Below, in pieces: positions 12,745-23,886 of a stretch of DNA of 32,000 nucleotides (position 1 is its first letter; every line of letters begins with the position of its first letter). The notes under the pieces are model-generated. The model made no database searches, was not told the origin of the DNA, and worked only from the letters and a program-made list of their open reading frames with translations. Location of the stretch: the NCBI RefSeq assembly GCF_000189295.2, contig NC_016803.1:1230001-1262000 (forward strand), written 5' to 3'. Position numbers and translations under genes: made by a program. This DNA comes from Pseudodesulfovibrio mercurii (GTDB taxonomy: Bacteria; Desulfobacterota; Desulfovibrionia; Desulfovibrionales; Desulfovibrionaceae).

Positions 12745-13247
12745 GAGCCGTCCTTGAGGCAACAGGTTGCGTCCAGGTGGGGTTCGATGATCTGCCACAG
12801 GACCCGTTTGCACACCGCGAACTCCTCGGGGTCCAGGTGCCTGGTGATCGCCGTCCGGCTCTCCAGGACGATCTCCAGGGTGAAGTCCACCAGCTCACGA
12901 CCCTTGTCCGTGATGTAGATGTACTTCACCCGCCGGTCCTCGTCCCCGGATTCGCGGCGCAGCAGCCCCTGCTTTTCCAGAGCCGCCACCAGCCGGCTGA
13001 CCCCGGTCTTCTCCTGGGAGAGCATGTCGCACAGCTTTCCCTGGGTCAGGCCGTCGGCCTTGTACGCCGGCAACAAGGCCCGCCATTGCTCCACCGTGAC
13101 CTTGACCCCGGCTTCGGCGAAGCGGGCGGCAAGGTCGTTGGCGAAGATGCGGGCCACCTTCCATGCAAGGAAGCCGATGGACTCCCTCGGATTCAATCGT
13201 TCGAGAAACATGGCGATTGTTGTATCTGCAACAAACACATGCGTCAA
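12741..13247 (-). CDS. MarR family transcriptional regulator
   Basis: ORF 12741..13247. Winged-helix pattern (LTQGKLCDMLSQEKTGVSRLVAALEKQGLLRRE...DRRVKYIYITDKG). The alternative start ATG 13211 (MFLERL) is equally plausible. Confidence 0.85.
   Translation of the reverse strand: MTHVFVADTTIAMFLERLNPRESIGFLAWKVARIFANDLAARFAEAGVKVTVEQWRALLPAYKADGLTQGKLCDMLSQEKTGVSRLVAALEKQGLLRRESGDEDRRVKYIYITDKGRELVDFTLEIVLESRTAITRHLDPEEFAVCKRVLWQIIEPHLDATCCLKDGS
13217..13234. promoter_or_regulatory. Candidate MarR operator (inverted repeat)
   Basis: TTGTTG-N6-CAACAA in the marR / helicase divergent region. A 6+6 repeat is not statistically significant on its own; only its position is suggestive. Confidence 0.3.
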
Positions 13248-13306
13248 CCCATTTTGGGCGGGTACACGGGTTGCAATAATAGGAGGATGCCTATACTGTT
13301 CACCCC

Positions 13307-16300
13307 ATGGAAAGATTCACCGCCGACCTGCACATCCACTCCCGTTTTTCGCGCGCCACCAGCAAGAACCTGACCATCCGGAACCTGGCCGCCTGGGGAC
13401 GCATGAAGGGACTTTCGGTGCTGGGCACGGGCGACTTCACCCACCCCGAATGGCTGGCCGAAATCGAGGAGCAGCTGGAGGACAACGGCAAGGGTCTGTT
13501 CGTCCTCAGGGAGCCCGACGGGCTGGAAAAGGAGATCCCGGAGTTCGAGGGGGAGATCCCCGGCCGGACCCGGTTCATGCTCGAAACGGAGATCAGTTCC
13601 ATCTACAAGCGCGGCGGCAAGGTCCGCAAGGTCCACAATCTGGTCTACATGCCCAACCTCGACGCGGTGAGAAGGTTCAACGAGAAGCTCGCCCAGGTGG
13701 GCAACCTGGCCTCGGACGGCCGCCCCATCCTCGGCCTGGACTCCCGCGACCTCCTGGACATGGTCCTGGAGACCCACCCCCAGGCCTTCCTGGTCCCGGC
13801 GCACATCTGGACCCCGTGGTTCTCCCTGTTCGGCTCCAAGTCCGGCTTCGACTCCATCCGCGAGTGCTTCGGCGACTATGCCGAGGAGATCTTCGCCATG
13901 GAGACCGGGCTGTCCTCCGACCCCGAGATGAACTGGACCTGGTCCGAGCTGGACCGCATCCGGCTGATCTCCAACTCCGACGCCCACTCCGGCGAAAAGC
14001 TCGGCCGCGAGGCCAACCTGTTCCGGGGCGAAATTTCCTACGAGGGCATCTACCGTGCCCTGCGCGGCGAGGGGCTGGGCCACAAATTTCTCGGCACCGT
14101 GGAGTTCTTCCCCGAGGAAGGCAAATACCACATGGACGGCCACCGCAAGTGCGGCGTGGTCATGGACCCCCACGAGACCATCGCCCGGGACGGCATCTGC
14201 CCGGTCTGCGGCAAGCCCGTGACCGTGGGCGTGTACAACCGCATCCTGGAGCTGGCCGACCGCGAAGAGCCGGTCCAGCCCTCGGGCGCGCCCGGCTTTG
14301 TCTCGCTCATCCCGCTCAAGGAAATCCTGTCGGAGGTTCTCGGCGTGGGCGCGGGGTCCAAGAAGGTCAACCACCTGTACATGAAGCTCATCCTCGAGTT
14401 CGGCAACGAGCTGGACATCCTCCAGCGGGTGCCCGCCGAGGACCTGAGCCGCTTTTCCTGCCACCTGGCCGAGGGCCTGACCCGCATGCGCGACGGCCAG
14501 GTCATCCGCAAGGCCGGGTTCGACGGCGAGTACGGGGTCATCTCGGTCTTCTCCGAGAAGGAGCGCGCCCAGATCAAGAACGGGGCCACCCTGATCCACA
14601 TCCCCCGGCCCGAGACCCGGCCCGATCCCGGCCTGACCGCGCCCTGCCGCGTGGTCTCCCGGCCCAAGGTCGAGGCCGTGCCCCTGGCCTACAACGACGC
14701 CCAGCAGGCGGCCATCGACGCCGGTCCCGGCCCGGTGCTCGTCCTGGCGGGCCCCGGCACGGGCAAGACCCAGACCCTCATGGGCAGGGTGGAGCGGCTC
14801 ATGGACGAGGGGGTCAACCCCAAGCGCATCCTGGCCCTGACCTTCACCCGGCGGGCGGCCCAGGAGTTGCGCGACAGGCTGCGCGCCCTGCGCGGCGAGA
14901 ACGCGGACATGCCCCAGGCCGGGACCCTCCATTCCCTGTGCTTCGACTACTGGAAGCACGCCTACTCCGAGACGCCCATCGTGGTCCCCGAGATCGCGGC
15001 CAAGAAGCTCTTCGCCGAGGTCAATCCCGAGTTCGCGGGCAAGAACCTGGACCACTACTGGACCAAGTACATCCTGGCCCGCGAGCAGCTGACCGAGCTG
15101 CCCGCCGACCTGGCCGACGCCCATATCAACTACGGCAACCAGAAGAACCACTGGGACCTGGTGGACTACACGGACCTTTTGGAATTCATGCTCGAACAGT
15201 CCGGCGCGCCGACCTTCCACATGCCCTACGCCCACGTGCTGGTGGACGAGGTCCAGGACCTCACCCCCCTGCAACTGGCCGTGGTCCGGGGCATCGCCGG
15301 TGCGTCCGGCGAAGGGCTGTTCTGCATCGGCGACCCCAAGCAGTCCATCTACGGGTTCCGGGGGGCCGTGAGCGACGTCCAGACGCACCTGAACGGGCTC
15401 TGGCCGAACATGGAGCAGGTCACCCTGACCGACAACTACCGCTCGGGCCAGGTCATCCTGGACGGGGCGGGCAATCTTTTCCCGGACTCCCCGCGCCTGA
15501 TCGCACGCAGGGACGTGGACGCGACCATGCACCTGTTCGAGGCCCCGGACGCCATGCGCGAAGCCACCTGGATCAGCGACAAGATCAAGGGGCTCATCGG
15601 GGCCACCAGCCACTCCATCGTGGACAGCGAGGGGGCGGGCGATCTGGCGCCGGGCGACATCGCGGTGCTGGTCCGCTTCAAGGCGCTCATCCCGGTCTAC
15701 GAGAAGGCCCTCAAGCGGGCGGGCGTGCCGGTCTCCACCCCGGAGCTGGAAGGGTTCTGGCAGGAGCCGCGCGTGGCCGCCATCCTCAAGGCCGCCGAGC
15801 ATTTTCTGGGCATGACCCTGTCCGGCGTGGAGGACACCATCGAGATCCCGGACCACATCCTGGCCAAGGGCCCGGTGGGGCTGGCCGCCTTTCTCAGCGA
15901 GACCCCGCCGTTCGACCAGTTCTTCTGGGAAAGCCGCCAGTTCAAGGAACTCAAGAAGGAGTTCGACCGACGCGGCGGCTGGCAGGGACTGGTCAACTGG
16001 GTGTCCCTCCAGACCGAGCTGGAGCTGGTCCGCAAGACCGCCGAGAAGGTCCAGATCATGACCCTGCACGCGTCCAAGGGGCTGGAATTCGAGGCCGTGT
16101 TCCTGCCCGCCTGCGAAGAGGGCATCCTGCCCTTCGCGGGCATGGACCTGCTCACCGCCAAGGTCACCCTGACCCCGGGCCGGGGCCAGCGGTTCTTCGA
16201 GGAGCGTCGGCTGATGTTCGTGGGCATGACCAGGGCCCGGCGCAACCTCTATCTCAGCCACGCCGGCCAGCGGCAGCTCTTCGGCAAGACCCTGATCCTG

Positions 16301-16405
16301 CCGAGGTCGCGCTACCTGCGGGAAATCCCCGAGAACCTCCTGACCCGATCCACACTGGCCGCGCGCAAGGTGACCAAGGAAAAACAGCTCGGCCTGCTCG
16401 ACTAG
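13307..16405 (+). CDS. Fusion protein: N-terminal PHP-type endonuclease Q-like domain plus C-terminal UvrD/Rep superfamily 1 helicase
   Basis: ORF 13307..16405, 1032 aa. N-terminus: ADLHIHSRFSRATS, GTGDFTHPEW, NSDAHS and the zinc-ribbon-like CPVCGKPVTVGVYNRI. C-terminus: helicase motifs AGPGTGKT, VLVDEVQD, DNYRSG, TLHASKGLEFEAVF, VGMTRAR. Confidence 0.85.
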   Translation: MERFTADLHIHSRFSRATSKNLTIRNLAAWGRMKGLSVLGTGDFTHPEWLAEIEEQLEDNGKGLFVLREPDGLEKEIPEFEGEIPGRTRFMLETEISSIYKRGGKVRKVHNLVYMPNLDAVRRFNEKLAQVGNLASDGRPILGLDSRDLLDMVLETHPQAFLVPAHIWTPWFSLFGSKSGFDSIRECFGDYAEEIFAMETGLSSDPEMNWTWSELDRIRLISNSDAHSGEKLGREANLFRGEISYEGIYRALRGEGLGHKFLGTVEFFPEEGKYHMDGHRKCGVVMDPHETIARDGICPVCGKPVTVGVYNRILELADREEPVQPSGAPGFVSLIPLKEILSEVLGVGAGSKKVNHLYMKLILEFGNELDILQRVPAEDLSRFSCHLAEGLTRMRDGQVIRKAGFDGEYGVISVFSEKERAQIKNGATLIHIPRPETRPDPGLTAPCRVVSRPKVEAVPLAYNDAQQAAIDAGPGPVLVLAGPGTGKTQTLMGRVERLMDEGVNPKRILALTFTRRAAQELRDRLRALRGENADMPQAGTLHSLCFDYWKHAYSETPIVVPEIAAKKLFAEVNPEFAGKNLDHYWTKYILAREQLTELPADLADAHINYGNQKNHWDLVDYTDLLEFMLEQSGAPTFHMPYAHVLVDEVQDLTPLQLAVVRGIAGASGEGLFCIGDPKQSIYGFRGAVSDVQTHLNGLWPNMEQVTLTDNYRSGQVILDGAGNLFPDSPRLIARRDVDATMHLFEAPDAMREATWISDKIKGLIGATSHSIVDSEGAGDLAPGDIAVLVRFKALIPVYEKALKRAGVPVSTPELEGFWQEPRVAAILKAAEHFLGMTLSGVEDTIEIPDHILAKGPVGLAAFLSETPPFDQFFWESRQFKELKKEFDRRGGWQGLVNWVSLQTELELVRKTAEKVQIMTLHASKGLEFEAVFLPACEEGILPFAGMDLLTAKVTLTPGRGQRFFEERRLMFVGMTRARRNLYLSHAGQRQLFGKTLILPRSRYLREIPENLLTRSTLAARKVTKEKQLGLLD

Positions 16406-16545
16406 AGCAGGAGGCGGTACAGCCCGCGCTCGTAGACCCAGCAAACGTTGCGGGCCGCGGCGCGCGGCAGGCCGAGGCGGCGCAACCGGCAGAAGACATG
16501 CAGGGGGTTGAACCTGTGTTGGCAATATTCGCGAAACGTGGTCAT
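16402..16545 (-). CDS. Possible small protein (47 aa), unknown function
   Basis: ORF 16402..16620 trimmed to ATG 16545, with GAGG 8 nt upstream (MTTFREYCQHRFNPLHVFCRLRRLGLPRAAARNVCWVYERGLYRLLL). Its 3' end overlaps the helicase stop by 4 nt. It could be spurious. Confidence 0.35.
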   Translation of the reverse strand: MTTFREYCQHRFNPLHVFCRLRRLGLPRAAARNVCWVYERGLYRLLL

Positions 16546-16595
16546 ATGCGAAACCTCGGCAAATCGTTCATCGTCCAAATAATCCAGCAATAACC

Positions 16596-19108: not shown

Positions 19109-21775
19109 ATGTCGTTAAAAGAACGCCTCAATTTCGATAAGGACCCGCTGTACCTCATCGACGGTACCGCCCTGCTCTATCGCGCCTTCTACGCCCGCGC
19201 CGACCTGTCGCGCTCGGACGGGTTTCCGACCAACGCCATCAACACGGTCATGCGCGTGCTCATGAACCTGCTCAAGGACGAGGACCCGCTCCACGTGGGC
19301 TTCGTCATGGACGGCAAGGGGCCGACCTTTCGCAACGCGCTGTACGACGGGTACAAGGCCAACCGCCCGGCCATGCCCGAGCCGCTGGTGGAACAGGTGG
19401 AGCCCGTGCGCCGGGGCGTGGGGCTGCTCGGCATCCCGCTGCTCGTGTCCGAGGGCGTGGAGGCGGACGACTGCATATGCTCCCTGGCGGACCGCTACAA
19501 GGCGGAGCGCCCGGTGATCATCCTGGCCACGGACAAGGACATCAAGCAGTGCCTGGACGACCAGGTGGTCATGGTCAGCCAGATGGGCCGCAAGGAGACC
19601 ATCCACACCCTCGATTCCTTCCGCGAGGCCGAGGGCATGGAACCCGCCACCTGGCCGGACTTCCAGGCGGTCATCGGCGACTCGGCGGACAACATCCCCG
19701 GCATCCCCGGCGTCGGCCCGGTGACCGCGCGCAAGATATTCGCCGCCACCGGCCCCACCCTGGAGGAGCTGCGCGACAACCTGGCCTCCCTGCCCGACAA
19801 GCTGCGCGCCAAGGTCGAGCCCGAGCTGGACCAGGTCTTCACCTACCGCCAGCTGACGCGCATGAAGACCAACTGCTGCGAGCAGGCCCTGGATTTCTTC
19901 CGGCTGCAGACGCCGGACCTGTCCGCCCTGAACGGCTATTTCGAGGAATACGAGCTGCGCGGCCTGCAACAGCTCCTGCCCAGGAACACGGCGGCCGCGC
20001 CCAAGGCCCCCCTGGCCGAGACCGTCAAGCAGGCGGCCAAGGCCACGCCCAAAGACGGCATGCTCTCCCTGTTCGGCGACACCATGGCCGCACCGGACAA
20101 GAAGGAGCCGGAGCAGCCGCTGGAGGTCAACGTGGCCGCCACAGTGGACGACCTGCCCGACCTGGGCGGCGAGGACGTGGGCCTGACCTTCGAGGACGAC
20201 GCCTTCTTCCTGGGCGTGAACGGCGCGGAGTACCGCTACGCCGGTCCGGCCGGGGAGCTGGTGCGGGCCGTCCAGCACGCCTCGATCATCGCCACGCCGA
20301 GCGTGCAGGACCTGCTGCGCGCGGACCCGGCGTGGGGCTACATTTTGTCGAGCCAGTGGTTCGACCTCAGCCTGGCCGCCTACCTGCTCGACCCCGAGTC
20401 GCGCAACTACACCTGGGCGCGGCTGCGCCAGTCCATGTTCCAGGACGGCCGCCCGGAGTTCGCCGAGGCCGCGCGCGGGCTGCATCCCCACTCCCAGGGG
20501 CTGGCCGCCCTGGCCTACATGACCGGCATCCGGGGCCAGGTGGAGGGGGCGCACCTGAACACCCTCATGCGCGAGCTGGAAATCCCGCTCATCCCGGTGC
20601 TGGTGGCCATGGAGCGGGCGGGCATCTCCATCGACGACGCGGCCTTCCAGGCGTTCCTCAATGACGTGAATGCGCAGCTGGACGAACTGACCCGGTCCAT
20701 CATCGGGTACGCGGGCGAGGAATTCAACATCCGCTCCAGCCAGCAGCTGGCCGTGGTCCTGTTCGACCAGCTCGGCATCAAGGCCGGGTCCAAGACCTCC
20801 ACGGGGCTGCGCTCGACGGCCAACCAGGTGCTCGAAAAAATCCGCGACCAGCACCCCATCGTGGACGCGGTGCTCGAATTCCGCATGCTCGAAAAGCTGC
20901 GCTCCACCTACCTGGAGCCGCTGCCCAAGATGGTCGGCGAGGACGGCCGCCTGCACACCCATTTCAACCAGCTGTCCACGGCCACGGGCAGGCTGTCGAG
21001 TTCCCAGCCCAACCTCCAGAACATCCCCATCCGGGGGGTGCACGGCCCGCGTATGCGCGCCTGTTTCAACGCGGCCGAGGGCAACATGCTGGCCGCGGCG
21101 GACTATTCGCAGATCGAACTGCGCGTCCTGGCCCACTTCTCCAAGGACCCGGAGCTGATCGACGCCTTCCGGCACGACGAGGACATCCACGCGCGCACGG
21201 CGGCGCTGATCCACGACAAGGACATCTCGGCGGTCACGCCCGACGAACGGCGCGGGGCCAAGACCATCAACTTCGGCCTGATCTACGGCATGGGCGTGCA
21301 GAAGCTTGCCCGCGAGCTTCAGATCAAGCAGACCGAGGCGCAGGAATTCACGGAAAAATACTTCGCCAAGATGGCCACCCTGAAGGCGTACTACGACACG
21401 GTGGTCAAGGACGCGGAGACCCACGGCTTCGTGACCACCCTGGCCGGACGCCGCCGCCTCCTGCCCGAGCTGCATTCCCGCAACAACCAGCTCTCGGCCC
21501 AGGCCCGCCGCCAGGCGGTCAACACGGTCATCCAGGGCTCGGCCGCCGACATCATCAAGATGGCCATGGTCCAGGCCCACAAGGACAAGCGCCTCCGCGA
21601 ACTGGGGGCCCAACTCATCCTCCAGGTCCACGACGAACTGATCATCGAGGCCCCCGAAGCGAACATCAAGGAAGCGGGCGGGCGCCTACTGGAAATCATG
21701 CAGACCGTCGCCAAACTGGACGTCCCGCTCAAGGTGGATATGGGGGTTGGGAAGAATTGGGCGGAAGCGCATTAG
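19109..21775 (+). CDS. polA: DNA polymerase I
   Basis: ORF 19109..21775, 888 aa. 5'-nuclease domain (LIDGTALLYRAFYA, GIPGVGPVTA) and polymerase motifs (DYSQIELRVLA, RRGAKTINFGLIYG, QVHDELI). Confidence 0.97.
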   Translation: MSLKERLNFDKDPLYLIDGTALLYRAFYARADLSRSDGFPTNAINTVMRVLMNLLKDEDPLHVGFVMDGKGPTFRNALYDGYKANRPAMPEPLVEQVEPVRRGVGLLGIPLLVSEGVEADDCICSLADRYKAERPVIILATDKDIKQCLDDQVVMVSQMGRKETIHTLDSFREAEGMEPATWPDFQAVIGDSADNIPGIPGVGPVTARKIFAATGPTLEELRDNLASLPDKLRAKVEPELDQVFTYRQLTRMKTNCCEQALDFFRLQTPDLSALNGYFEEYELRGLQQLLPRNTAAAPKAPLAETVKQAAKATPKDGMLSLFGDTMAAPDKKEPEQPLEVNVAATVDDLPDLGGEDVGLTFEDDAFFLGVNGAEYRYAGPAGELVRAVQHASIIATPSVQDLLRADPAWGYILSSQWFDLSLAAYLLDPESRNYTWARLRQSMFQDGRPEFAEAARGLHPHSQGLAALAYMTGIRGQVEGAHLNTLMRELEIPLIPVLVAMERAGISIDDAAFQAFLNDVNAQLDELTRSIIGYAGEEFNIRSSQQLAVVLFDQLGIKAGSKTSTGLRSTANQVLEKIRDQHPIVDAVLEFRMLEKLRSTYLEPLPKMVGEDGRLHTHFNQLSTATGRLSSSQPNLQNIPIRGVHGPRMRACFNAAEGNMLAAADYSQIELRVLAHFSKDPELIDAFRHDEDIHARTAALIHDKDISAVTPDERRGAKTINFGLIYGMGVQKLARELQIKQTEAQEFTEKYFAKMATLKAYYDTVVKDAETHGFVTTLAGRRRLLPELHSRNNQLSAQARRQAVNTVIQGSAADIIKMAMVQAHKDKRLRELGAQLILQVHDELIIEAPEANIKEAGGRLLEIMQTVAKLDVPLKVDMGVGKNWAEAH

Positions 21776-21837
21776 AACAATTAGGGGGCTTACTCACACT
21801 TTCCCATATAACTAGCCAAAAGGCCCTGACAGCCTAT

Positions 21838-22704
21838 CTATGTGATATTTTTTATTCCGGTAGCCGTTATATGTATTAATGAGCTCTCACCCAAAGCATT
21901 TATTTTGTATTCAGGAAATCCTTTTAAAAACGACCGGTTACAGCTCATCGCATTAACATAGTCACGCATACTCTCAACATCTTTATGAATAGTAAATTGA
22001 ACTATTCTAGATTCTCCTTCATCATCTACTATTTCTAATCCCCCATTCTTAGTTTTTTTATTTAACTTATACACTTGGCATTGTACTTCAATCTCTTCTG
22101 ACCCTTTTCTTTGCTCATCATTAACTTTATACAGTTGACAATTGTTTTCATCGATAGAAAATGAACCTAAAACTCTTTGCGATTCGTCTTCAATATTCTC
22201 AAACAGAATTGAATTGGGACCATTACTTCCAATTTGTTCAGCTAACCCAGTAATATCTTTGCTTAATCTATTAGCCGCCAGTAATACACTATTATTTACT
22301 GTTATTTCGCCGTTGTTAACAACGATCAGATTTGTTGAATTTGGCGAATTATCAATTTCTGGGCTTAACGGTTTACCTGTAAACTTGAAATGCTCAACTG
22401 CAAATTTAATATATTCAAAAGTAGCTGAAAATAACTCCCAAGAGTATGAATTGATAACTGGAGCGATCAAAGCTGCAAATTGAGGTATATCGCATGTGAT
22501 AAGTGTTTCTAACGACCCCTGCTTCAACTTTTCTAAATAAATTTTAGGCTGTGGAAGTCGATATTTTGACGAAGAATACTTTTCGAATGATTTAGTAAGA
22601 CAATAATATGATGTCGTCTCAAGACCACTTAGAAGGCTAATAGTTGCTGATAAAATCGGTTTACCTTCAAAATCTCCGCCCTGAGCATACAATCTGATTC
22701 TCAT
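21838..22704 (-). CDS. Orphan hypothetical protein (288 aa) encoded in the AT-rich islet
   Basis: ORF 21838..22713 trimmed to ATG 22704 (MRIRLYAQGGDFEGKP), with GGTGGG upstream. It is the only long open frame in the islet. No catalytic, nucleotide-binding or TM motif recognised. Confidence 0.7.
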   Translation of the reverse strand: MRIRLYAQGGDFEGKPILSATISLLSGLETTSYYCLTKSFEKYSSSKYRLPQPKIYLEKLKQGSLETLITCDIPQFAALIAPVINSYSWELFSATFEYIKFAVEHFKFTGKPLSPEIDNSPNSTNLIVVNNGEITVNNSVLLAANRLSKDITGLAEQIGSNGPNSILFENIEDESQRVLGSFSIDENNCQLYKVNDEQRKGSEEIEVQCQVYKLNKKTKNGGLEIVDDEGESRIVQFTIHKDVESMRDYVNAMSCNRSFLKGFPEYKINALGESSLIHITATGIKNIT

Positions 22705-22744
22705 AAATCCCACCGTTTTTTAATTTATACGTAGTTGATTTTTA

Positions 22745-22750
22745 ATTATA
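22745..22750 (-). promoter_or_regulatory. Possible -10 box for the orphan gene
   Basis: Perfect TATAAT on the minus strand, about 41 nt upstream of ATG 22704. The AT-rich background makes chance matches likely. Confidence 0.2.
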
Positions 22751-22988
22751 TGTCCAATTAATTTTAAAAACTATGTATAAAAATCTATTTCAGTTATCTC
22801 TCCGTCGGGCCTAGAACTGACGGAACGGCGGAGCAGTTCTTCGAACCTTAGAGAGAGCGGAGCGGGCGACTGTAGCAGAAACGGAACGGTCTGAGCGGAA
22901 GCTAGGAGCGGCTTGCGTAGCCCGCGCAGCGGCTTTCCCGCCCGCGGCCCGGCCTTTCGGGAAGCCGCAGGCTTGCCCTCTTCCGCTT

Positions 22989-23016
22989 CCAAAGAAAAAG
23001 CCCCGCTGGGCGGGGC
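22989..23016 (-). terminator. Rho-independent terminator of the substrate-binding protein gene
   Basis: GCCCCGC (23000-23006) pairs with GCGGGGC (23010-23016). On the minus strand it is followed by CTTTTTCTTTGG. Confidence 0.7.
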
Positions 23017-23082
23017 CTTCCTTTATTCTTCTCTCTTGCTCTTCTCTTTTCATTCTTGCTCGAAGGCGGACCCCGGCGACCG

Positions 23083-23886
23083 CTATTGCCGGACCACGTA
23101 CTTCCCTATGATGTCGTCGATCCGGCCCTCTGCCTGCATCCGCTTGATGACCTCGTTGAACTCGGGCAGCAGGTCGGCACAGGGGCAGGCGCGGCTGATG
23201 AGCAGGTGGAAGGGCATGGCCTCCAGGGAGACGTCCGTTTCCACGATGCGGCCCGCCACCCCGCCGTCCTTGATGAGCGGCCAGGCCGCCAGGGGCCACT
23301 CGATGGCGATGTCGCCCCGGTGGTTGGCCAGCATGAGCCAGACGTTCTTGAGCAGCGGGGAGTCGTAGGTCTTGATGCCCCTTGAGCGGATGTATTTGTC
23401 GTTCCAGCCGTTGCCGTGGTAGGTGACCACCACCAGGGCCAGGCGGTGGATGTCGTCGATGGAGCGGATGGCGCGGATCTCGGCCAGCTTGGGGTGGTCC
23501 ACTGTGGTGAAGACCTTGAGCTGCTTCAGGTAGAAGGGATCGTCGTGGGTGGCCGCGTAGACCAGCCGCTCGGCCGTGGGCACCGTGATCATGGCGTCGG
23601 CCTCGCCGTCCCGGACCAGGGCCTGACAGCGGCTCCACGGATAGGTCCGCCACGTGGACTCGATGCCCAGGCGTTCCAGGGCCTCATGGACGATGTCGTA
23701 GAAGAAACCGGTCATGACCCCTTGGTCGTTCCGGGTGAAGAAGGGCCAGTAGTCGGGATAGACCACCTTCAGCGGCTCGGCCGCCAGGGCTCCCGAAGCG
23801 AAGACCAGCAATGCGGCGGCCAGGCAAAGGGTCGCCCGCATCCGTCCGGCACGGCCGGACAATCTTCGCAAGAAATAGTGGAACAT
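23083..23886 (-). CDS. Periplasmic substrate-binding protein (SBP_bac_3-like, amino-acid ABC/sensor type)
   Basis: ORF 23083..23886. Signal peptide MRATLCLAAALLVFASGALAAEP (ATG 23841 may be the true start). PDYWPFF and YPWSRCQALVRDGEADAMI fit family 3 SBPs. Confidence 0.8.
   Translation of the reverse strand: MFHYFLRRLSGRAGRMRATLCLAAALLVFASGALAAEPLKVVYPDYWPFFTRNDQGVMTGFFYDIVHEALERLGIESTWRTYPWSRCQALVRDGEADAMITVPTAERLVYAATHDDPFYLKQLKVFTTVDHPKLAEIRAIRSIDDIHRLALVVVTYHGNGWNDKYIRSRGIKTYDSPLLKNVWLMLANHRGDIAIEWPLAAWPLIKDGGVAGRIVETDVSLEAMPFHLLISRACPCADLLPEFNEVIKRMQAEGRIDDIIGKYVVRQ

What the first reader, a model, noticed from the sequence alone, without database searches (positions are those of the whole stretch)
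21776..22800. Compositionally foreign 1-kb islet with a single orphan ORF immediately after polA
G+C drops from about 61% (hand count, 21601-21700) to about 33% (22201-22300) directly after the polA stop and recovers near 22800. The islet holds one 288-aa minus-strand ORF (21838-22704) with its own AT-rich upstream region. I recognise no family, catalytic motif, P-loop, TM segment or signal peptide in the protein. I see no integrase, transposase, tRNA or obvious target-site duplication, so how it arrived is unclear. A lone foreign gene in an otherwise housekeeping neighbourhood is the pattern seen for compact defence, abortive-infection or toxin cargo. That functional guess is pure inference. 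This is my top candidate for the undescribed element in the window.
Basis: partly seen in the sequence, partly recalled or inferred. Interest (0 to 1): 0.8.

Follow-up and report, generated by a model that had tools for sequence, protein, structure and literature searches.

The report
Phage-derived lone gene after polA
A 1-kb AT-rich insert right after the DNA polymerase I gene of Pseudodesulfovibrio mercurii carries one gene from a rare, unnamed protein family that otherwise sits beside the repressor of Mu-like phages or next to known anti-phage systems, so it is most likely a captured single-gene phage-exclusion factor, though nobody has tested this.

Summary
Window 21776-22785 has 33.5% G+C against 64.6% elsewhere (z = -13) and holds one real gene, 21838-22704(-), 288 aa (DND132_1147, Pseudodesulfovibrio mercurii ND132).

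It is not an orphan. Exhaustive HMMER finds about 50 divergent full-length relatives (23-35% identity). With them AlphaFold gives pLDDT 94: an N-terminal helical alpha/beta domain with no solved-structure match, plus a C-terminal OB-fold. No polar residue is invariant, so it is probably not an enzyme.

The slot is a cargo hotspot. Two sister species are collinear up to the polA stop and again from about 22786, but carry other low-GC cargo there. One cargo is PADLOC candidate defence system PDC-M11.

Of 13 homologue loci:
- 4 lie at the repressor end of Mu-like phages, one of them beside a ThsB TIR gene.
- 2 are other phage contigs.
- 2 are integrase/primase elements.
- 1 directly follows a Kiwa pair.
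- 1 adjoins a type I R-M/SIR2 operon.

A sister subfamily (hhalign E 2e-28) weakly matches candidate PDC-S42.

Best reading (about 0.55): a horizontally captured, repressor-linked phage gene acting as a non-enzymatic single-gene exclusion or abortive-infection factor, analogous to BstA. Function and mechanism are inferred only.

The parts
21776..22785 (.). Low-GC cargo islet (1010 bp) occupying a variable slot between the polA stop codon and a conserved right-flank element
   Evidence: G+C 0.335 against 0.646, z = -13.2. Homology to the sister species L003 and L004 stops at 21774-21777 and resumes at 22786-22790.
21838..22704 (-). Cargo gene DND132_1147, 288 aa plus stop. It belongs to an unnamed family of about 290-aa two-domain proteins.
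   Evidence: ORF. 100% identical to a P. mercurii hypothetical protein. 53 homologous cluster representatives, nearly all full length. AlphaFold2 with the family alignment gives pLDDT 93.8 and pTM 0.89.
22225..22704 (-). N-terminal domain, residues about 1-160: strand, 26-residue helix, hairpin, 35-residue helix, small hairpin, helix. It carries the conserved GSLD, W89 and NSPGA motifs.
   Evidence: Secondary structure of the model. Conservation. None of the 50 listed PDB Foldseek matches covers the whole chain; the consistent ones are short OB-fold proteins. A borderline thioredoxin profile hit (E 0.009) was not backed by Foldseek and is treated as chance.
22096..22224 (-). Acidic beta-rich linker region, residues about 161-203 (median pI 4.6 across the family)
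21841..22095 (-). C-terminal OB-fold-like barrel, residues about 204-288. Topology is b1 205-215, b2 220-226, b3 232-239, helix 247-252, b4 257-268, b5 274-287. The motif C-x-I-Y-x-x-N-[KR]-x-[TS]-x-x-G-x-L-E spans b1, the b1-b2 loop and b2. NALGE lies in the b4-b5 loop.
   Evidence: The topology is my reading of the model's secondary structure. Foldseek PDB hits are SSB/Rim1, RPA32, Stn1 and the Lys/Asp-tRNA synthetase anticodon domain: about 85-100 aligned columns, probability 0.9-1.0, E 5e-3 to 0.1. G221 is invariant and F237, G272, E273 and N215 are at least 90% conserved. Sub-threshold Pfam DUF7947 hit at residues 204-249.
22705..22785 (-). The gene's own upstream region (10-27% G+C): Shine-Dalgarno GGTGGG at 22709-22714, a perfect TATAAT at 22746-22751, and a 13-nt inverted repeat (22724-22736 / 22769-22781) bracketing it
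   Evidence: Sequence and inverted repeat I4. The consensus promoter scan found no full -35/-10 pair on this strand, so the promoter is inferred, not shown.
19109..21775 (+). polA (DNA polymerase I, 888 aa). Its stop codon is the left edge of the slot.
   Evidence: ORF. 88-89% DNA identity to L003 and L004, ending exactly at the stop codon.
22786..22894 (.). Conserved right-flank element (about 78-80% identical in both sister species). It marks the right edge of the slot.
   Evidence: A possible stem-loop structure rests on only three sequences. No Rfam match.
23000..23016 (.). G+C-rich hairpin with T-runs on both strands. It is the likely terminator of the SBP gene and would insulate the cargo gene from read-through.
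   Evidence: Terminator scan and sequence. The minus-strand reading GCCCCGC-CCA-GCGGGGC followed by TTTTTCTTT is my own reading of the sequence.
23083..23886 (-). Periplasmic solute-binding protein gene (SBP_bac_3), the conserved right-hand neighbour
   Evidence: Pfam E 7e-13. Syntenic in L003 and L004.

Best explanation
The islet is horizontally acquired cargo sitting in a variable slot just downstream of polA. The gene belongs to a sparse, unnamed family whose usual home is temperate mobile elements. There it is most often the gene downstream of, and co-oriented with, the CI/c-type repressor, above all at the repressor end of Mu-like transposable phages.

I propose it is a single-gene superinfection-exclusion or abortive-infection factor. 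In ND132 it would be expressed from its own AT-rich promoter.

The proposed mechanism is inferred, not shown. The protein has no invariant polar residue, so it probably acts by binding rather than catalysis. The conserved face of the C-terminal OB-fold (the b1-b2 loop motif N-[KR]-x-[TS]-x-x-G, the b4-b5 loop NALGE, aromatic Y212 and F237) would recognise a phage-derived ligand. That ligand could be single-stranded DNA, a replication intermediate or a phage protein. The long-helix N-terminal domain would mediate oligomerisation or the downstream block. This is analogous to BstA, a 307-aa two-domain prophage protein encoded downstream of cI that acts at sites of phage DNA replication.

The gene most likely arrived by homologous recombination through the conserved flanks, not by a site-specific recombinase.

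My confidence that it is foreign cargo from a phage-borne family is about 0.95. The figure of 0.55 given for this explanation applies to the anti-phage role. For OB-fold ligand binding as the mechanism I would say about 0.3.
For: Shown:
- The composition is extreme.
- The gene is real: 53 relatives and a model with pLDDT 93.8.
- The slot is variable. L003 carries an unrelated gene of about 200 aa and L004 carries PDC-M11A (E 1.8e-135), PDC-M11B (1.5e-41) and an AAA_17 gene at the same position, all low in G+C.

Contexts in 13 distinct homologue loci:
- Four are Mu-like phages with repressor -> (0-2 small genes) -> member, divergent from Ner/MuA/MuB. In three of them (L088, L095, L097) the member is followed within 206-501 bp by the contig end. 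Independent assemblies of these three break at the same distance (206/206, 241/240, 501/501 bp).
- In the fourth (L106) a ThsB TIR gene follows the member (PADLOC 1.1e-69).
- An HTH + S24 CI-like architecture (each Pfam hit just below its cut-off) lies 34 bp upstream of the closest relative, and its homologue lies upstream of another.
- An Xre gene lies 31 bp upstream in an integrase/primase element.
- KwaA (6.9e-66) and KwaB (7.9e-110) precede a member by 238 bp, between housekeeping genes.
- A type I R-M operon with an embedded SIR2 gene (PDC-S65, 1.2e-214) lies about 1.5 kb upstream of another member, with three small genes between.

Other support:
- Member genes are markedly AT-rich relative to their flanks in the four chromosomal or GC-rich loci (0.33-0.38 against 0.54-0.61) and lower than the flanks in all nine loci checked.
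- The core family and the P0050/P0064 subfamily align at hhalign probability 99.8, E 1.8e-28. That subfamily hits PADLOC PDC-S42 at 2e-5 and 8e-5.
- OB-fold similarity, and only glycine is invariant.
- Whole-length structural matches to three uncharacterised phage proteins at E 2e-8 to 5e-7. One contains DUF6575, a domain named among the validated E. coli anti-phage systems in PMC9519451.
- Precedents for repressor-linked exclusion genes: BstA (PMC8585504) and Mu-like phage Fc02 (PMC9936078).
Against: - No experiment of any kind supports a function.
- The query itself matches no PADLOC, Pfam, NCBIfam or PHROG model above threshold.
- The PDC-S42 link is indirect and weak. It covers about half of the model and goes through a subfamily only 20-25% identical to the query. 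PDC candidates are themselves mostly unvalidated (PMC12988326).
- A place in the repressor operon also fits lysogeny regulation or other lysogenic-conversion functions.
- OB-fold E-values are modest (5e-3 and weaker). The OB domain is near neutral (median pI 6.2) and carries conserved acidic residues (E224, E273), which is not typical of single-stranded-DNA binders.
- The BFVD matches have TM-scores of only 0.34-0.43 and rmsd of about 9-11 A. The probable LE1 counterpart shows no sequence relationship.
- Expression in ND132 is not shown.
Confidence: 0.55

Rival explanations
1. It is a lysogeny-module accessory protein that serves the phage itself, for example by modulating repressor activity, induction, or transposition or replication choice. 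On this reading the ND132 copy is a stranded fragment of a mobile element with no current role for the cell.
For: Seven of 13 homologue loci place the gene downstream of a CI/c/Xre-type repressor. An OB-fold could bind the phage's own DNA ends or replication intermediates.
Against: Members also occur with no repressor or phage genes nearby: after Kiwa, beside R-M/SIR2 and in the ND132 slot. The ND132 ORF is intact, with a Shine-Dalgarno sequence and a -10 box. The partner repressors belong to different types (HTH_19 only, HTH_3 + S24, short Xre), which argues against a specific protein partnership.
Confidence: 0.15
2. It is a phage-encoded gene with another host-directed role. Examples are a counter-defence protein, an inhibitor of a receptor or pilus, or an SSB-like recombination accessory factor. 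It would not be an immunity protein in its own right.
For: It is phage-borne in at least six loci. One locus lies in an early region with RecT and a PLD nuclease. The OB-fold resembles SSB and RPA. Anti-defence genes also cluster in accessory regions, which I state from general knowledge.
Against: Lone chromosomal copies between housekeeping genes and beside defence systems are hard to explain for a counter-defence gene. No Pfam SSB or recombination-mediator signal was found. The repressor-side position implies expression in the lysogen rather than early in lytic infection, which is an inference from Mu gene organisation.
Confidence: 0.15
3. It is a solitary toxin or growth-arrest protein, perhaps a remnant of a toxin-antitoxin pair, kept silent by the AT-rich context.
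For: It is a small, foreign, AT-rich single gene. One homologue fragment lies in an island with PIN toxins.
Against: There is no toxin-family signal in Pfam, NCBIfam or PADLOC. No antitoxin-sized partner is conserved among the loci. No catalytic-type residue is invariant. The gene is intact in ND132 without a partner.
Confidence: 0.05
4. It is an artefact: a chimeric assembly, contamination, or a non-coding AT-rich spacer that happens to contain an ORF.
For: The composition change is abrupt and no mobility signature is present.
Against: Two other read sets assemble across both junctions at 100% identity. There are 53 homologues with full-length collinear alignments. The co-evolution-driven model has pLDDT 93.8. 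Sister genomes show the same slot occupied by other cargo.
Confidence: 0.01

Closest known systems
BstA (prophage BTP1 of Salmonella; Owen et al. 2021, PMC8585504)
   Same: It is a single gene of about 300 aa with two domains and no recognisable enzymatic motif. [quoted passage not shown] One domain is a predicted nucleic-acid binder. It is found in diverse bacteria at low frequency.
   Different: There is no sequence or fold relationship. [quoted passage not shown] The query gave no hit in PADLOC or Pfam at all; I did not confirm that those libraries contain a BstA model. No aba-like self-immunity element was looked for. BstA's defence function is demonstrated and this family's is not.
PADLOC candidate PDC-S42 (single-gene putative defence candidate, found by guilt-by-embedding, unvalidated)
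   Same: The length is similar (model 302 positions). The P0050/P0064 subfamily matches it collinearly at E 2e-5 and 8e-5. That subfamily is homologous to the query's core family over 269 columns (hhalign E 1.8e-28).
   Different: The query itself and 50 of the 52 family members tested do not match the model. The matches cover only about model positions 46-222. I could not obtain PDC-S42 sequences to compare directly.
Lambda RexA/RexB and other repressor-operon exclusion genes (including the olg1 and gene 10 exclusion genes of Mu-like phage Fc02, PMC9936078)
   Same: The genetic logic is the same: an exclusion function transcribed with, or beside, the prophage repressor, so that it is made in the lysogen (for Fc02; Rex from general knowledge).
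   Different: No RexA or RexB model matched in Pfam or PADLOC, and no RexA-like structure appears among the 50 listed PDB Foldseek matches. There is no membrane partner gene. The Fc02 proteins are much smaller (7.9 and 20.7 kDa).
OB-fold single-stranded-DNA-binding proteins (bacterial SSB, yeast Rim1, RPA32, Stn1) and the tRNA-synthetase anticodon-binding OB domain
   Same: The C-terminal roughly 85 residues have b1-b2-b3-helix-b4-b5 topology and superpose on these structures (probability 0.9-1.0, target-normalised TM 0.43-0.53 for the SSB/Rim1 chains and lower, 0.13-0.32, for the longer RPA, Stn1 and synthetase chains). Conserved aromatic and basic positions lie on b1, the b1-b2 loop and b3.
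   Different: There is no sequence match to Pfam SSB or tRNA_anti. E-values are only 5e-3 to 0.1. The domain is near neutral, with conserved acidic residues. The large N-terminal domain has no counterpart in these proteins.
Pfam DUF7947 (PF25679), and DUF6575 (named in a validated E. coli anti-phage system, Vassallo et al. 2022)
   Same: DUF7947 aligns to OB strands b1-b3 (residues 204-249) in the query and is the only Pfam family that recurs, in 6 of 52 members. A DUF6575-containing siphovirus protein is the best whole-length structural match (E 2e-8).
   Different: DUF7947 scores 14.2 bits against a 27-bit cut-off. No member matches DUF6575 by sequence. The structural match has TM-scores of only 0.34-0.42. 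I could not determine which E. coli system carries DUF6575.

Membership tests
PADLOC PDC-S42 | Significant match of the protein to HMM PDLC05015 | tested here: not met
   The query has no PADLOC hit at E <= 10. Only 2 of 52 family members match, at 2e-5. The link is indirect, through profile-profile homology.
PADLOC PDC-S42 | Embedding in or adjacency to known defence systems (the guilt-by-embedding criterion) | tested here: inconclusive
   The ND132 copy has no defence neighbour in the window, but its slot holds PDC-M11 in a sister species. Homologues adjoin Kiwa, ThsB and R-M/SIR2. No statistical enrichment was computed.
Pfam DUF7947 (PF25679) | Score at or above the 27-bit gathering threshold | tested here: not met
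   14.2 bits, E 0.048, residues 204-249. The best family member reaches E 0.0035.
Pfam DUF6575 | Sequence match to the Pfam model | tested here: not met
   It does not appear among the hits of any of the 52 members at E <= 0.1. The only link is a structural match to one DUF6575 protein in BFVD.
BstA | [quoted passage not shown] | tested here: not met
   No KilA-N hit in Pfam and no hit of any kind in PADLOC. I did not confirm that PADLOC v2.0.0 holds a BstA model. The predicted fold differs.
BstA | Location downstream of, and co-oriented with, the prophage repressor | tested here: met
   Met for the family: 7 of 13 homologue loci. Not met for the ND132 copy, which has no repressor nearby.
BstA | Abortive-infection phenotype with an aba self-immunity element | not testable with these tools
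   This needs phage infection assays.
Lambda Rex-like exclusion (RexA/RexB) | Homology to RexA, plus an adjacent RexB membrane partner | tested here: not met
   No hit of any kind in Pfam or PADLOC. No RexA-like structure among the 50 listed PDB fold matches. No conserved partner gene.
SSB / OB-fold nucleic-acid-binding proteins | Five-stranded b1-b2-b3-helix-b4-b5 barrel | tested here: met
   Model secondary structure at residues 205-287 and consistent Foldseek hits to SSB, Rim1, RPA32 and Stn1. This shows fold resemblance only.
SSB / OB-fold nucleic-acid-binding proteins | Sequence membership (Pfam SSB) and single-stranded-DNA binding | tested here: not met
   No Pfam SSB hit in any member. 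Binding activity cannot be tested here.
Site-specific genomic island, transposon or integron cassette | Integrase or transposase, tRNA or att target, direct or inverted terminal repeats | tested here: not met
   No tRNA, no border repeats beyond chance-level 9-15-mers and no mobility gene among the window ORFs scanned. attC structure was not specifically modelled.
Defence/cargo hotspot (variable slot between conserved core genes) | Conserved flanks with different, compositionally foreign cargo in related genomes | tested here: met
   Three species carry three different low-GC cargos between the polA stop and the conserved element. One cargo is PDC-M11. Only two relatives were available.

The most novel reading that the evidence does not exclude
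The family is a new class of non-enzymatic, single-protein anti-phage immunity. It is spread mainly by Mu-like transposable phages as part of their repressor operon. A dedicated OB-fold senses a phage replication intermediate or protein, and a previously unseen helical N-terminal domain carries out exclusion or abortive infection. The polA-downstream slot of Pseudodesulfovibrio would then be a small defence hotspot that swaps such single-gene modules by flank recombination.
Probability: 0.3. Interest if true: 0.7.

Novelty: new variant of a known kind. Interest (0 to 1): 0.5.

Why it matters
If the family is an immunity factor, it would add a compact, non-enzymatic defence protein with a partly novel fold to the known repertoire. 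It would also show that Mu-like transposable phages use the repressor end of their genome as a defence-cargo site, much as lambdoid phages do with rex and bstA.

In practical terms, this work turns an unannotatable 'hypothetical protein' into a testable candidate. It now has a confident structural model, a defined set of conserved surface residues to mutate, and homologues in phages whose hosts may be easier to work with than Pseudodesulfovibrio.

The finding also marks the polA-SBP interval as a hotspot worth surveying across Desulfovibrionaceae for further cargo.

If the protein turns out to be a phage regulatory accessory, the finding is of only local interest.

Tried and rejected
- **Direct family assignment.** Pfam, NCBIfam, PHROGs and PADLOC on the query gave nothing above threshold.
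- **Word-indexed homology search.** The single-sequence search returned only the protein itself. With the family alignment it returned almost only the P0050 subfamily.
- **Single-sequence AlphaFold.** Useless, pLDDT 34.
- **PDB profile search.** It gave only a borderline thioredoxin hit to residues 6-107 (E 0.009). Foldseek did not recover thioredoxin and there is no CxxC motif, so I treat it as chance.
- **Pattern-based locus scans.** Scans of IMG/VR with A5, P0018 and P0006 found nothing. The metagenome scan gave only six loci.
- **tblastn against annotated collections.** No match in phages or plasmids.
- **P0051 (1750 aa) as a possible domain fusion.** It is a PPC-repeat surface protein, so the hit is spurious.
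- **Leptospira phage LE1.** LE1-0037, chosen by length as the probable Q6NE06, has no sequence relationship to the family (hhalign probability 0.3) and no Pfam domain.
- **Which Vassallo system carries DUF6575.** The text does not say, and the term is absent from the two supplementary files held.
- **A conserved partner gene.** None was found, apart from CI-like repressors.
- **Border signatures.** Target-site duplications, terminal inverted repeats, tRNA and Rfam all gave nothing. The mir-193 match inside the ORF is chance.
- **Literature.** No paper in the library mentions DND132_1147, DUF7947 or PDC-S42.
Full report
**1.

A sliding G+C profile shows 0.58-0.70 up to about 21800, 0.30-0.36 from 21800 to 22800, and 0.64 again from 22800. 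The stretch 21776-22785 has G+C 0.335 against 0.646 for the rest of the window. That is 13 standard deviations below the 572 other 1010-bp windows (minimum 0.575), and it is the only patch below 50% in the 32 kb.

The ORF 21838-22704(-) encodes 288 aa. A GTG three codons upstream is possible, but the ATG is preceded by GGTGGG at 22709-22714. Third-position G+C is 0.26, against 0.93 for polA and 0.91 for the solute-binding-protein (SBP) gene.

There is no tRNA, no Rfam family and no border repeat beyond chance-sized 9-15-mers. The window genes I scanned are ordinary chromosomal genes: DHH, polA, SBP_bac_3, two AcrB pumps, an HlyD protein, a nitroreductase and an aminotransferase.

The protein is identical to hypothetical protein DND132_1147 of Pseudodesulfovibrio mercurii ND132. 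Two Logan assemblies of other read sets (SRR3926152, SRR3926153) reproduce window 21244-23263 and 21674-22981 at 100% identity across both junctions. An assembly chimera is therefore very unlikely.

**2. The protein is real and belongs to a sparse family.**

The word-indexed search of 5.8 billion proteins found only the protein itself. The exhaustive phmmer search of 1.84 billion cluster representatives found 53 with E <= 1e-3 and 42 with E <= 1e-10. Identity is 23-35%, and nearly all are 280-300 aa and collinear over the full length. One hit, P0051 (1750 aa), is a PPC-repeat surface protein and is spurious.

The alignment shows the motifs GSLD, W89, NSPGA, C-x-I-Y-x-x-N-[KR]-x-[TS]-x-x-G-x-L-E and NALGE. 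Only G221 is invariant. The positions conserved at 90% or more are G9, L25, S64, W89, N215, F237, G272 and E273. There is no P-loop, no HExxH and no invariant acid, base or nucleophile, so an enzyme is unlikely. This is an inference from conservation.

No Pfam, NCBIfam, PHROG or PADLOC model matches the query above threshold. The only recurring weak hit is DUF7947 at residues 204-249, in 6 of 52 members, with a best E of 0.0035.

**3. Structure.**

Without an alignment AlphaFold fails (pLDDT 34). With the 52-sequence alignment it gives pLDDT 93.8 and pTM 0.89. The model has three parts:
- Residues 1-160 form an alpha/beta domain dominated by two long helices (18-43 and 75-109).
- Residues 161-203 are an acidic beta-rich linker.
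- Residues 204-288 have the order b1-b2-b3-short helix-b4-b5, which is the OB-fold topology.

Foldseek against the PDB gives no whole-chain match. It does give a consistent series of OB-fold hits to the C-terminal domain (SSB, Rim1, RPA32, Stn1 and the Lys/Asp-tRNA synthetase anticodon domain) at probability 0.9-1.0 and E 5e-3 to 0.1. The conserved motifs map to b1, the b1-b2 loop, b2, b3 and the b4-b5 loop, which is the usual ligand-binding face of OB-folds by general knowledge.

Foldseek against viral models gives three whole-length matches at E 2e-8 to 5e-7. They are a DUF6575-containing siphovirus protein, a myovirus protein and Leptospira phage LE1 Q6NE06. TM-scores are only 0.34-0.43. 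The probable LE1 gene (LE1-0037) shows no sequence relationship. DUF6575 is listed among domains newly implicated in phage defence by the E. coli functional selection (PMC9519451), but I could not find which system carries it.

**4. The locus is a variable cargo slot.**

A scan of one genome per species with the PolA C-terminus returned two close relatives with 90-91% PolA identity: Desulfovibrio caledoniensis (L003) and Pseudodesulfovibrio karagichevae (L004). Both are collinear with the window at 88-89% DNA identity up to the polA stop codon. Both are collinear again from window 22786-22790 onwards, first through a conserved element of about 105 bp and then through the SBP and efflux genes. 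Between those points each genome has different low-GC DNA:

| Genome | DNA in the slot | G+C | Content |
|---|---|---|---|
| ND132 (window) | 1010 bp | 0.335 | the 288-aa gene, minus strand |
| L003 | about 734 bp | about 0.39 | one gene of about 200 aa with no family match |
| L004 | about 2.1 kb | about 0.39 | three genes |

The first two L004 genes match PADLOC candidate system PDC-M11 (M11A E 1.8e-135, M11B E 1.5e-41). The third is an AAA_17 P-loop protein.

So the gene is not conserved at this locus, and the slot carries candidate defence cargo in a sister species. With no recombinase, tRNA or repeats, exchange by homologous recombination through the conserved flanks is the simplest route. 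This is an inference.

**5. Where the family lives.**

I obtained 13 distinct homologue loci.

- **Four Mu-like transposable phages.** A c-type repressor (HTH_3/HTH_19, in one case with an S24 peptidase domain) is followed in the same orientation by 0-2 small genes and then the family member. The module is divergent from Ner (HTH_35), MuA (Mu-transpos_C), MuB (AAA_22) and GemA.
  - In three of them (L088, L095, L097) the contig ends 206, 501 and 241 bp after the gene. Independent assemblies break at the same distances, which fits the physical phage end.
  - In the fourth (L106) the member is followed by a ThsB-type TIR gene (PADLOC 1.1e-69).
- **The closest relative, P0002.** It lies 34 bp downstream of a 249-aa protein with an HTH + S24, CI-like architecture. 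Each Pfam hit is just below its cut-off. The homologue of that protein lies upstream of P0006, in a phage early region with a DrmC-like PLD nuclease, a nucleoside deoxyribosyltransferase and RecT.
- **L099.** An Xre repressor lies 31 bp upstream of the member, divergent from a primase and two tyrosine recombinases. L091 is a similar island with PIN genes.
- **L107.** A phage contig with a small terminase, a lysozyme and Prim-Pol.
- **Two chromosomal defence contexts.**
  - In L092, KwaA (6.9e-66) and KwaB (7.9e-110) are followed after 238 bp by the member, between an aminotransferase and a LigB gene.
  - In L084 and L104, a type I R-M operon with an embedded SIR2 gene (PDC-S65, 1.2e-214) lies about 1.5 kb upstream of the member.
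- **Two loci are uninformative.**

Member genes are markedly poorer in G+C than their surroundings in the four chromosomal or GC-rich loci (for example 0.33 against 0.56, 0.35 against 0.59 and 0.34 against 0.61), and lower than the flanks in all nine loci checked.

**6. Link to a catalogued candidate.**

Two members, P0050 and P0064, match PADLOC PDC-S42 collinearly at E 2e-5 and 8e-5. To avoid circularity I aligned the core family (A4, 40 sequences, without that subfamily) and the subfamily (A5, 16 sequences) separately. hhalign gives probability 99.8, E 1.8e-28, over 269 columns.

The query is therefore a distant relative of a subfamily that touches PDC-S42, but it does not itself match that model. 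PDCs are guilt-by-embedding candidates and most are unvalidated (PMC12988326).

**7. Interpretation.**

Shown:
- The islet is foreign single-gene cargo in a variable slot.
- The gene encodes a genuine, well-folded two-domain protein.
- Its family is carried mainly by temperate phages and integrative elements, typically in the repressor operon, and sometimes beside known defence systems.

Inferred:
- It acts as a superinfection-exclusion or abortive-infection factor made in the lysogen, or here from its own promoter.
- It works by binding through the OB-fold rather than by catalysis.

The best-documented analogue is BstA. It is 307 aa, has two domains, is encoded downstream of cI and presumably shares its promoter, and acts at sites of phage DNA replication (PMC8585504). 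Mu-like phage Fc02 also carries exclusion genes in its repressor transcript (PMC9936078). There is no homology to either.

The rivals are a phage-serving lysogeny accessory protein, another host-directed phage gene such as a counter-defence or SSB-like factor, and a solitary toxin. None is excluded. The chromosomal copies that lack any phage genes count against the first two. The lack of a partner gene or a toxin motif counts against the third.

**8. Verdict.**

It is not a categorically new kind of element. It is a new, unnamed family within the known kind 'prophage- and island-borne single-gene defence candidates'. It has a partly novel fold and a clear, testable hypothesis.

Noticed in passing
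window 22786-22894 (also L003 7934-8040 and L004 9325-9435): An element of about 105 bp is conserved at 78-80% in all three species and forms the right edge of the cargo slot. RNAalifold proposes stem-loops with a few compensatory changes, but only three sequences are available, and there is no Rfam match. It could be a small RNA, a 3' UTR or a recombination landmark.
   Followed up: partly
L003 8246-8452(-) and L004 9639-9878(-); absent from window 22895-23079: Both sister species have a small cysteine-rich gene (68-79 aa, ending ...CYFCSRECHTR) between the slot and the SBP gene. ND132 has lost it, so its interval is about 335 bp shorter. The gene has no Pfam or PADLOC hit.
   Followed up: partly
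L003 7320-7922(+): The cargo in the same slot in D. caledoniensis is a different gene of about 200 aa, with about 39% G+C and no Pfam or PADLOC match. It is a second uncharacterised candidate from the same hotspot.
   Followed up: partly
L004 7263-9353(+): In P. karagichevae the PDC-M11A/B pair is followed by a third gene that overlaps M11B by 20 nt. It encodes an AAA_17 P-loop kinase-like protein (Pfam E 1e-13). This may be a three-gene version of the candidate system.
   Followed up: no
L106 5223-8749: The repressor-side module of a Mu-like phage carries, in one direction, an 82-aa protein with a weak Cas2-like match (E 2e-5), a 199-aa protein with a weak methyltransferase-like match, the family member, and a ThsB TIR protein. 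No ThsA was seen in the fetched stretch, which runs about 1 kb beyond ThsB.
   Followed up: partly
L084 395-6546 (also L085, L087 and L104): A SIR2 gene (584 aa, PADLOC PDC-S65 at E 1e-214) is inserted between hsdS and hsdR of a type I restriction-modification operon. Two small unannotated genes (134 and 66 aa) lie between this operon and the family member.
   Followed up: no
window 22724-22736 and 22769-22781: A 13-nt inverted repeat (12 of 13 complementary, 32 nt apart) brackets the putative -10 box of the cargo gene. It could be an operator for an unknown regulator or simply an effect of AT-richness.
   Followed up: no
window 12919-16593(+): The longest ORF in this stretch (1224 aa) has no Pfam hit at E <= 1e-5. 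Long ORFs overlap it in another frame and on the other strand (13307-16405 +, 13244-16525 -). In this high-GC genome the real gene may be one of those.
   Followed up: no
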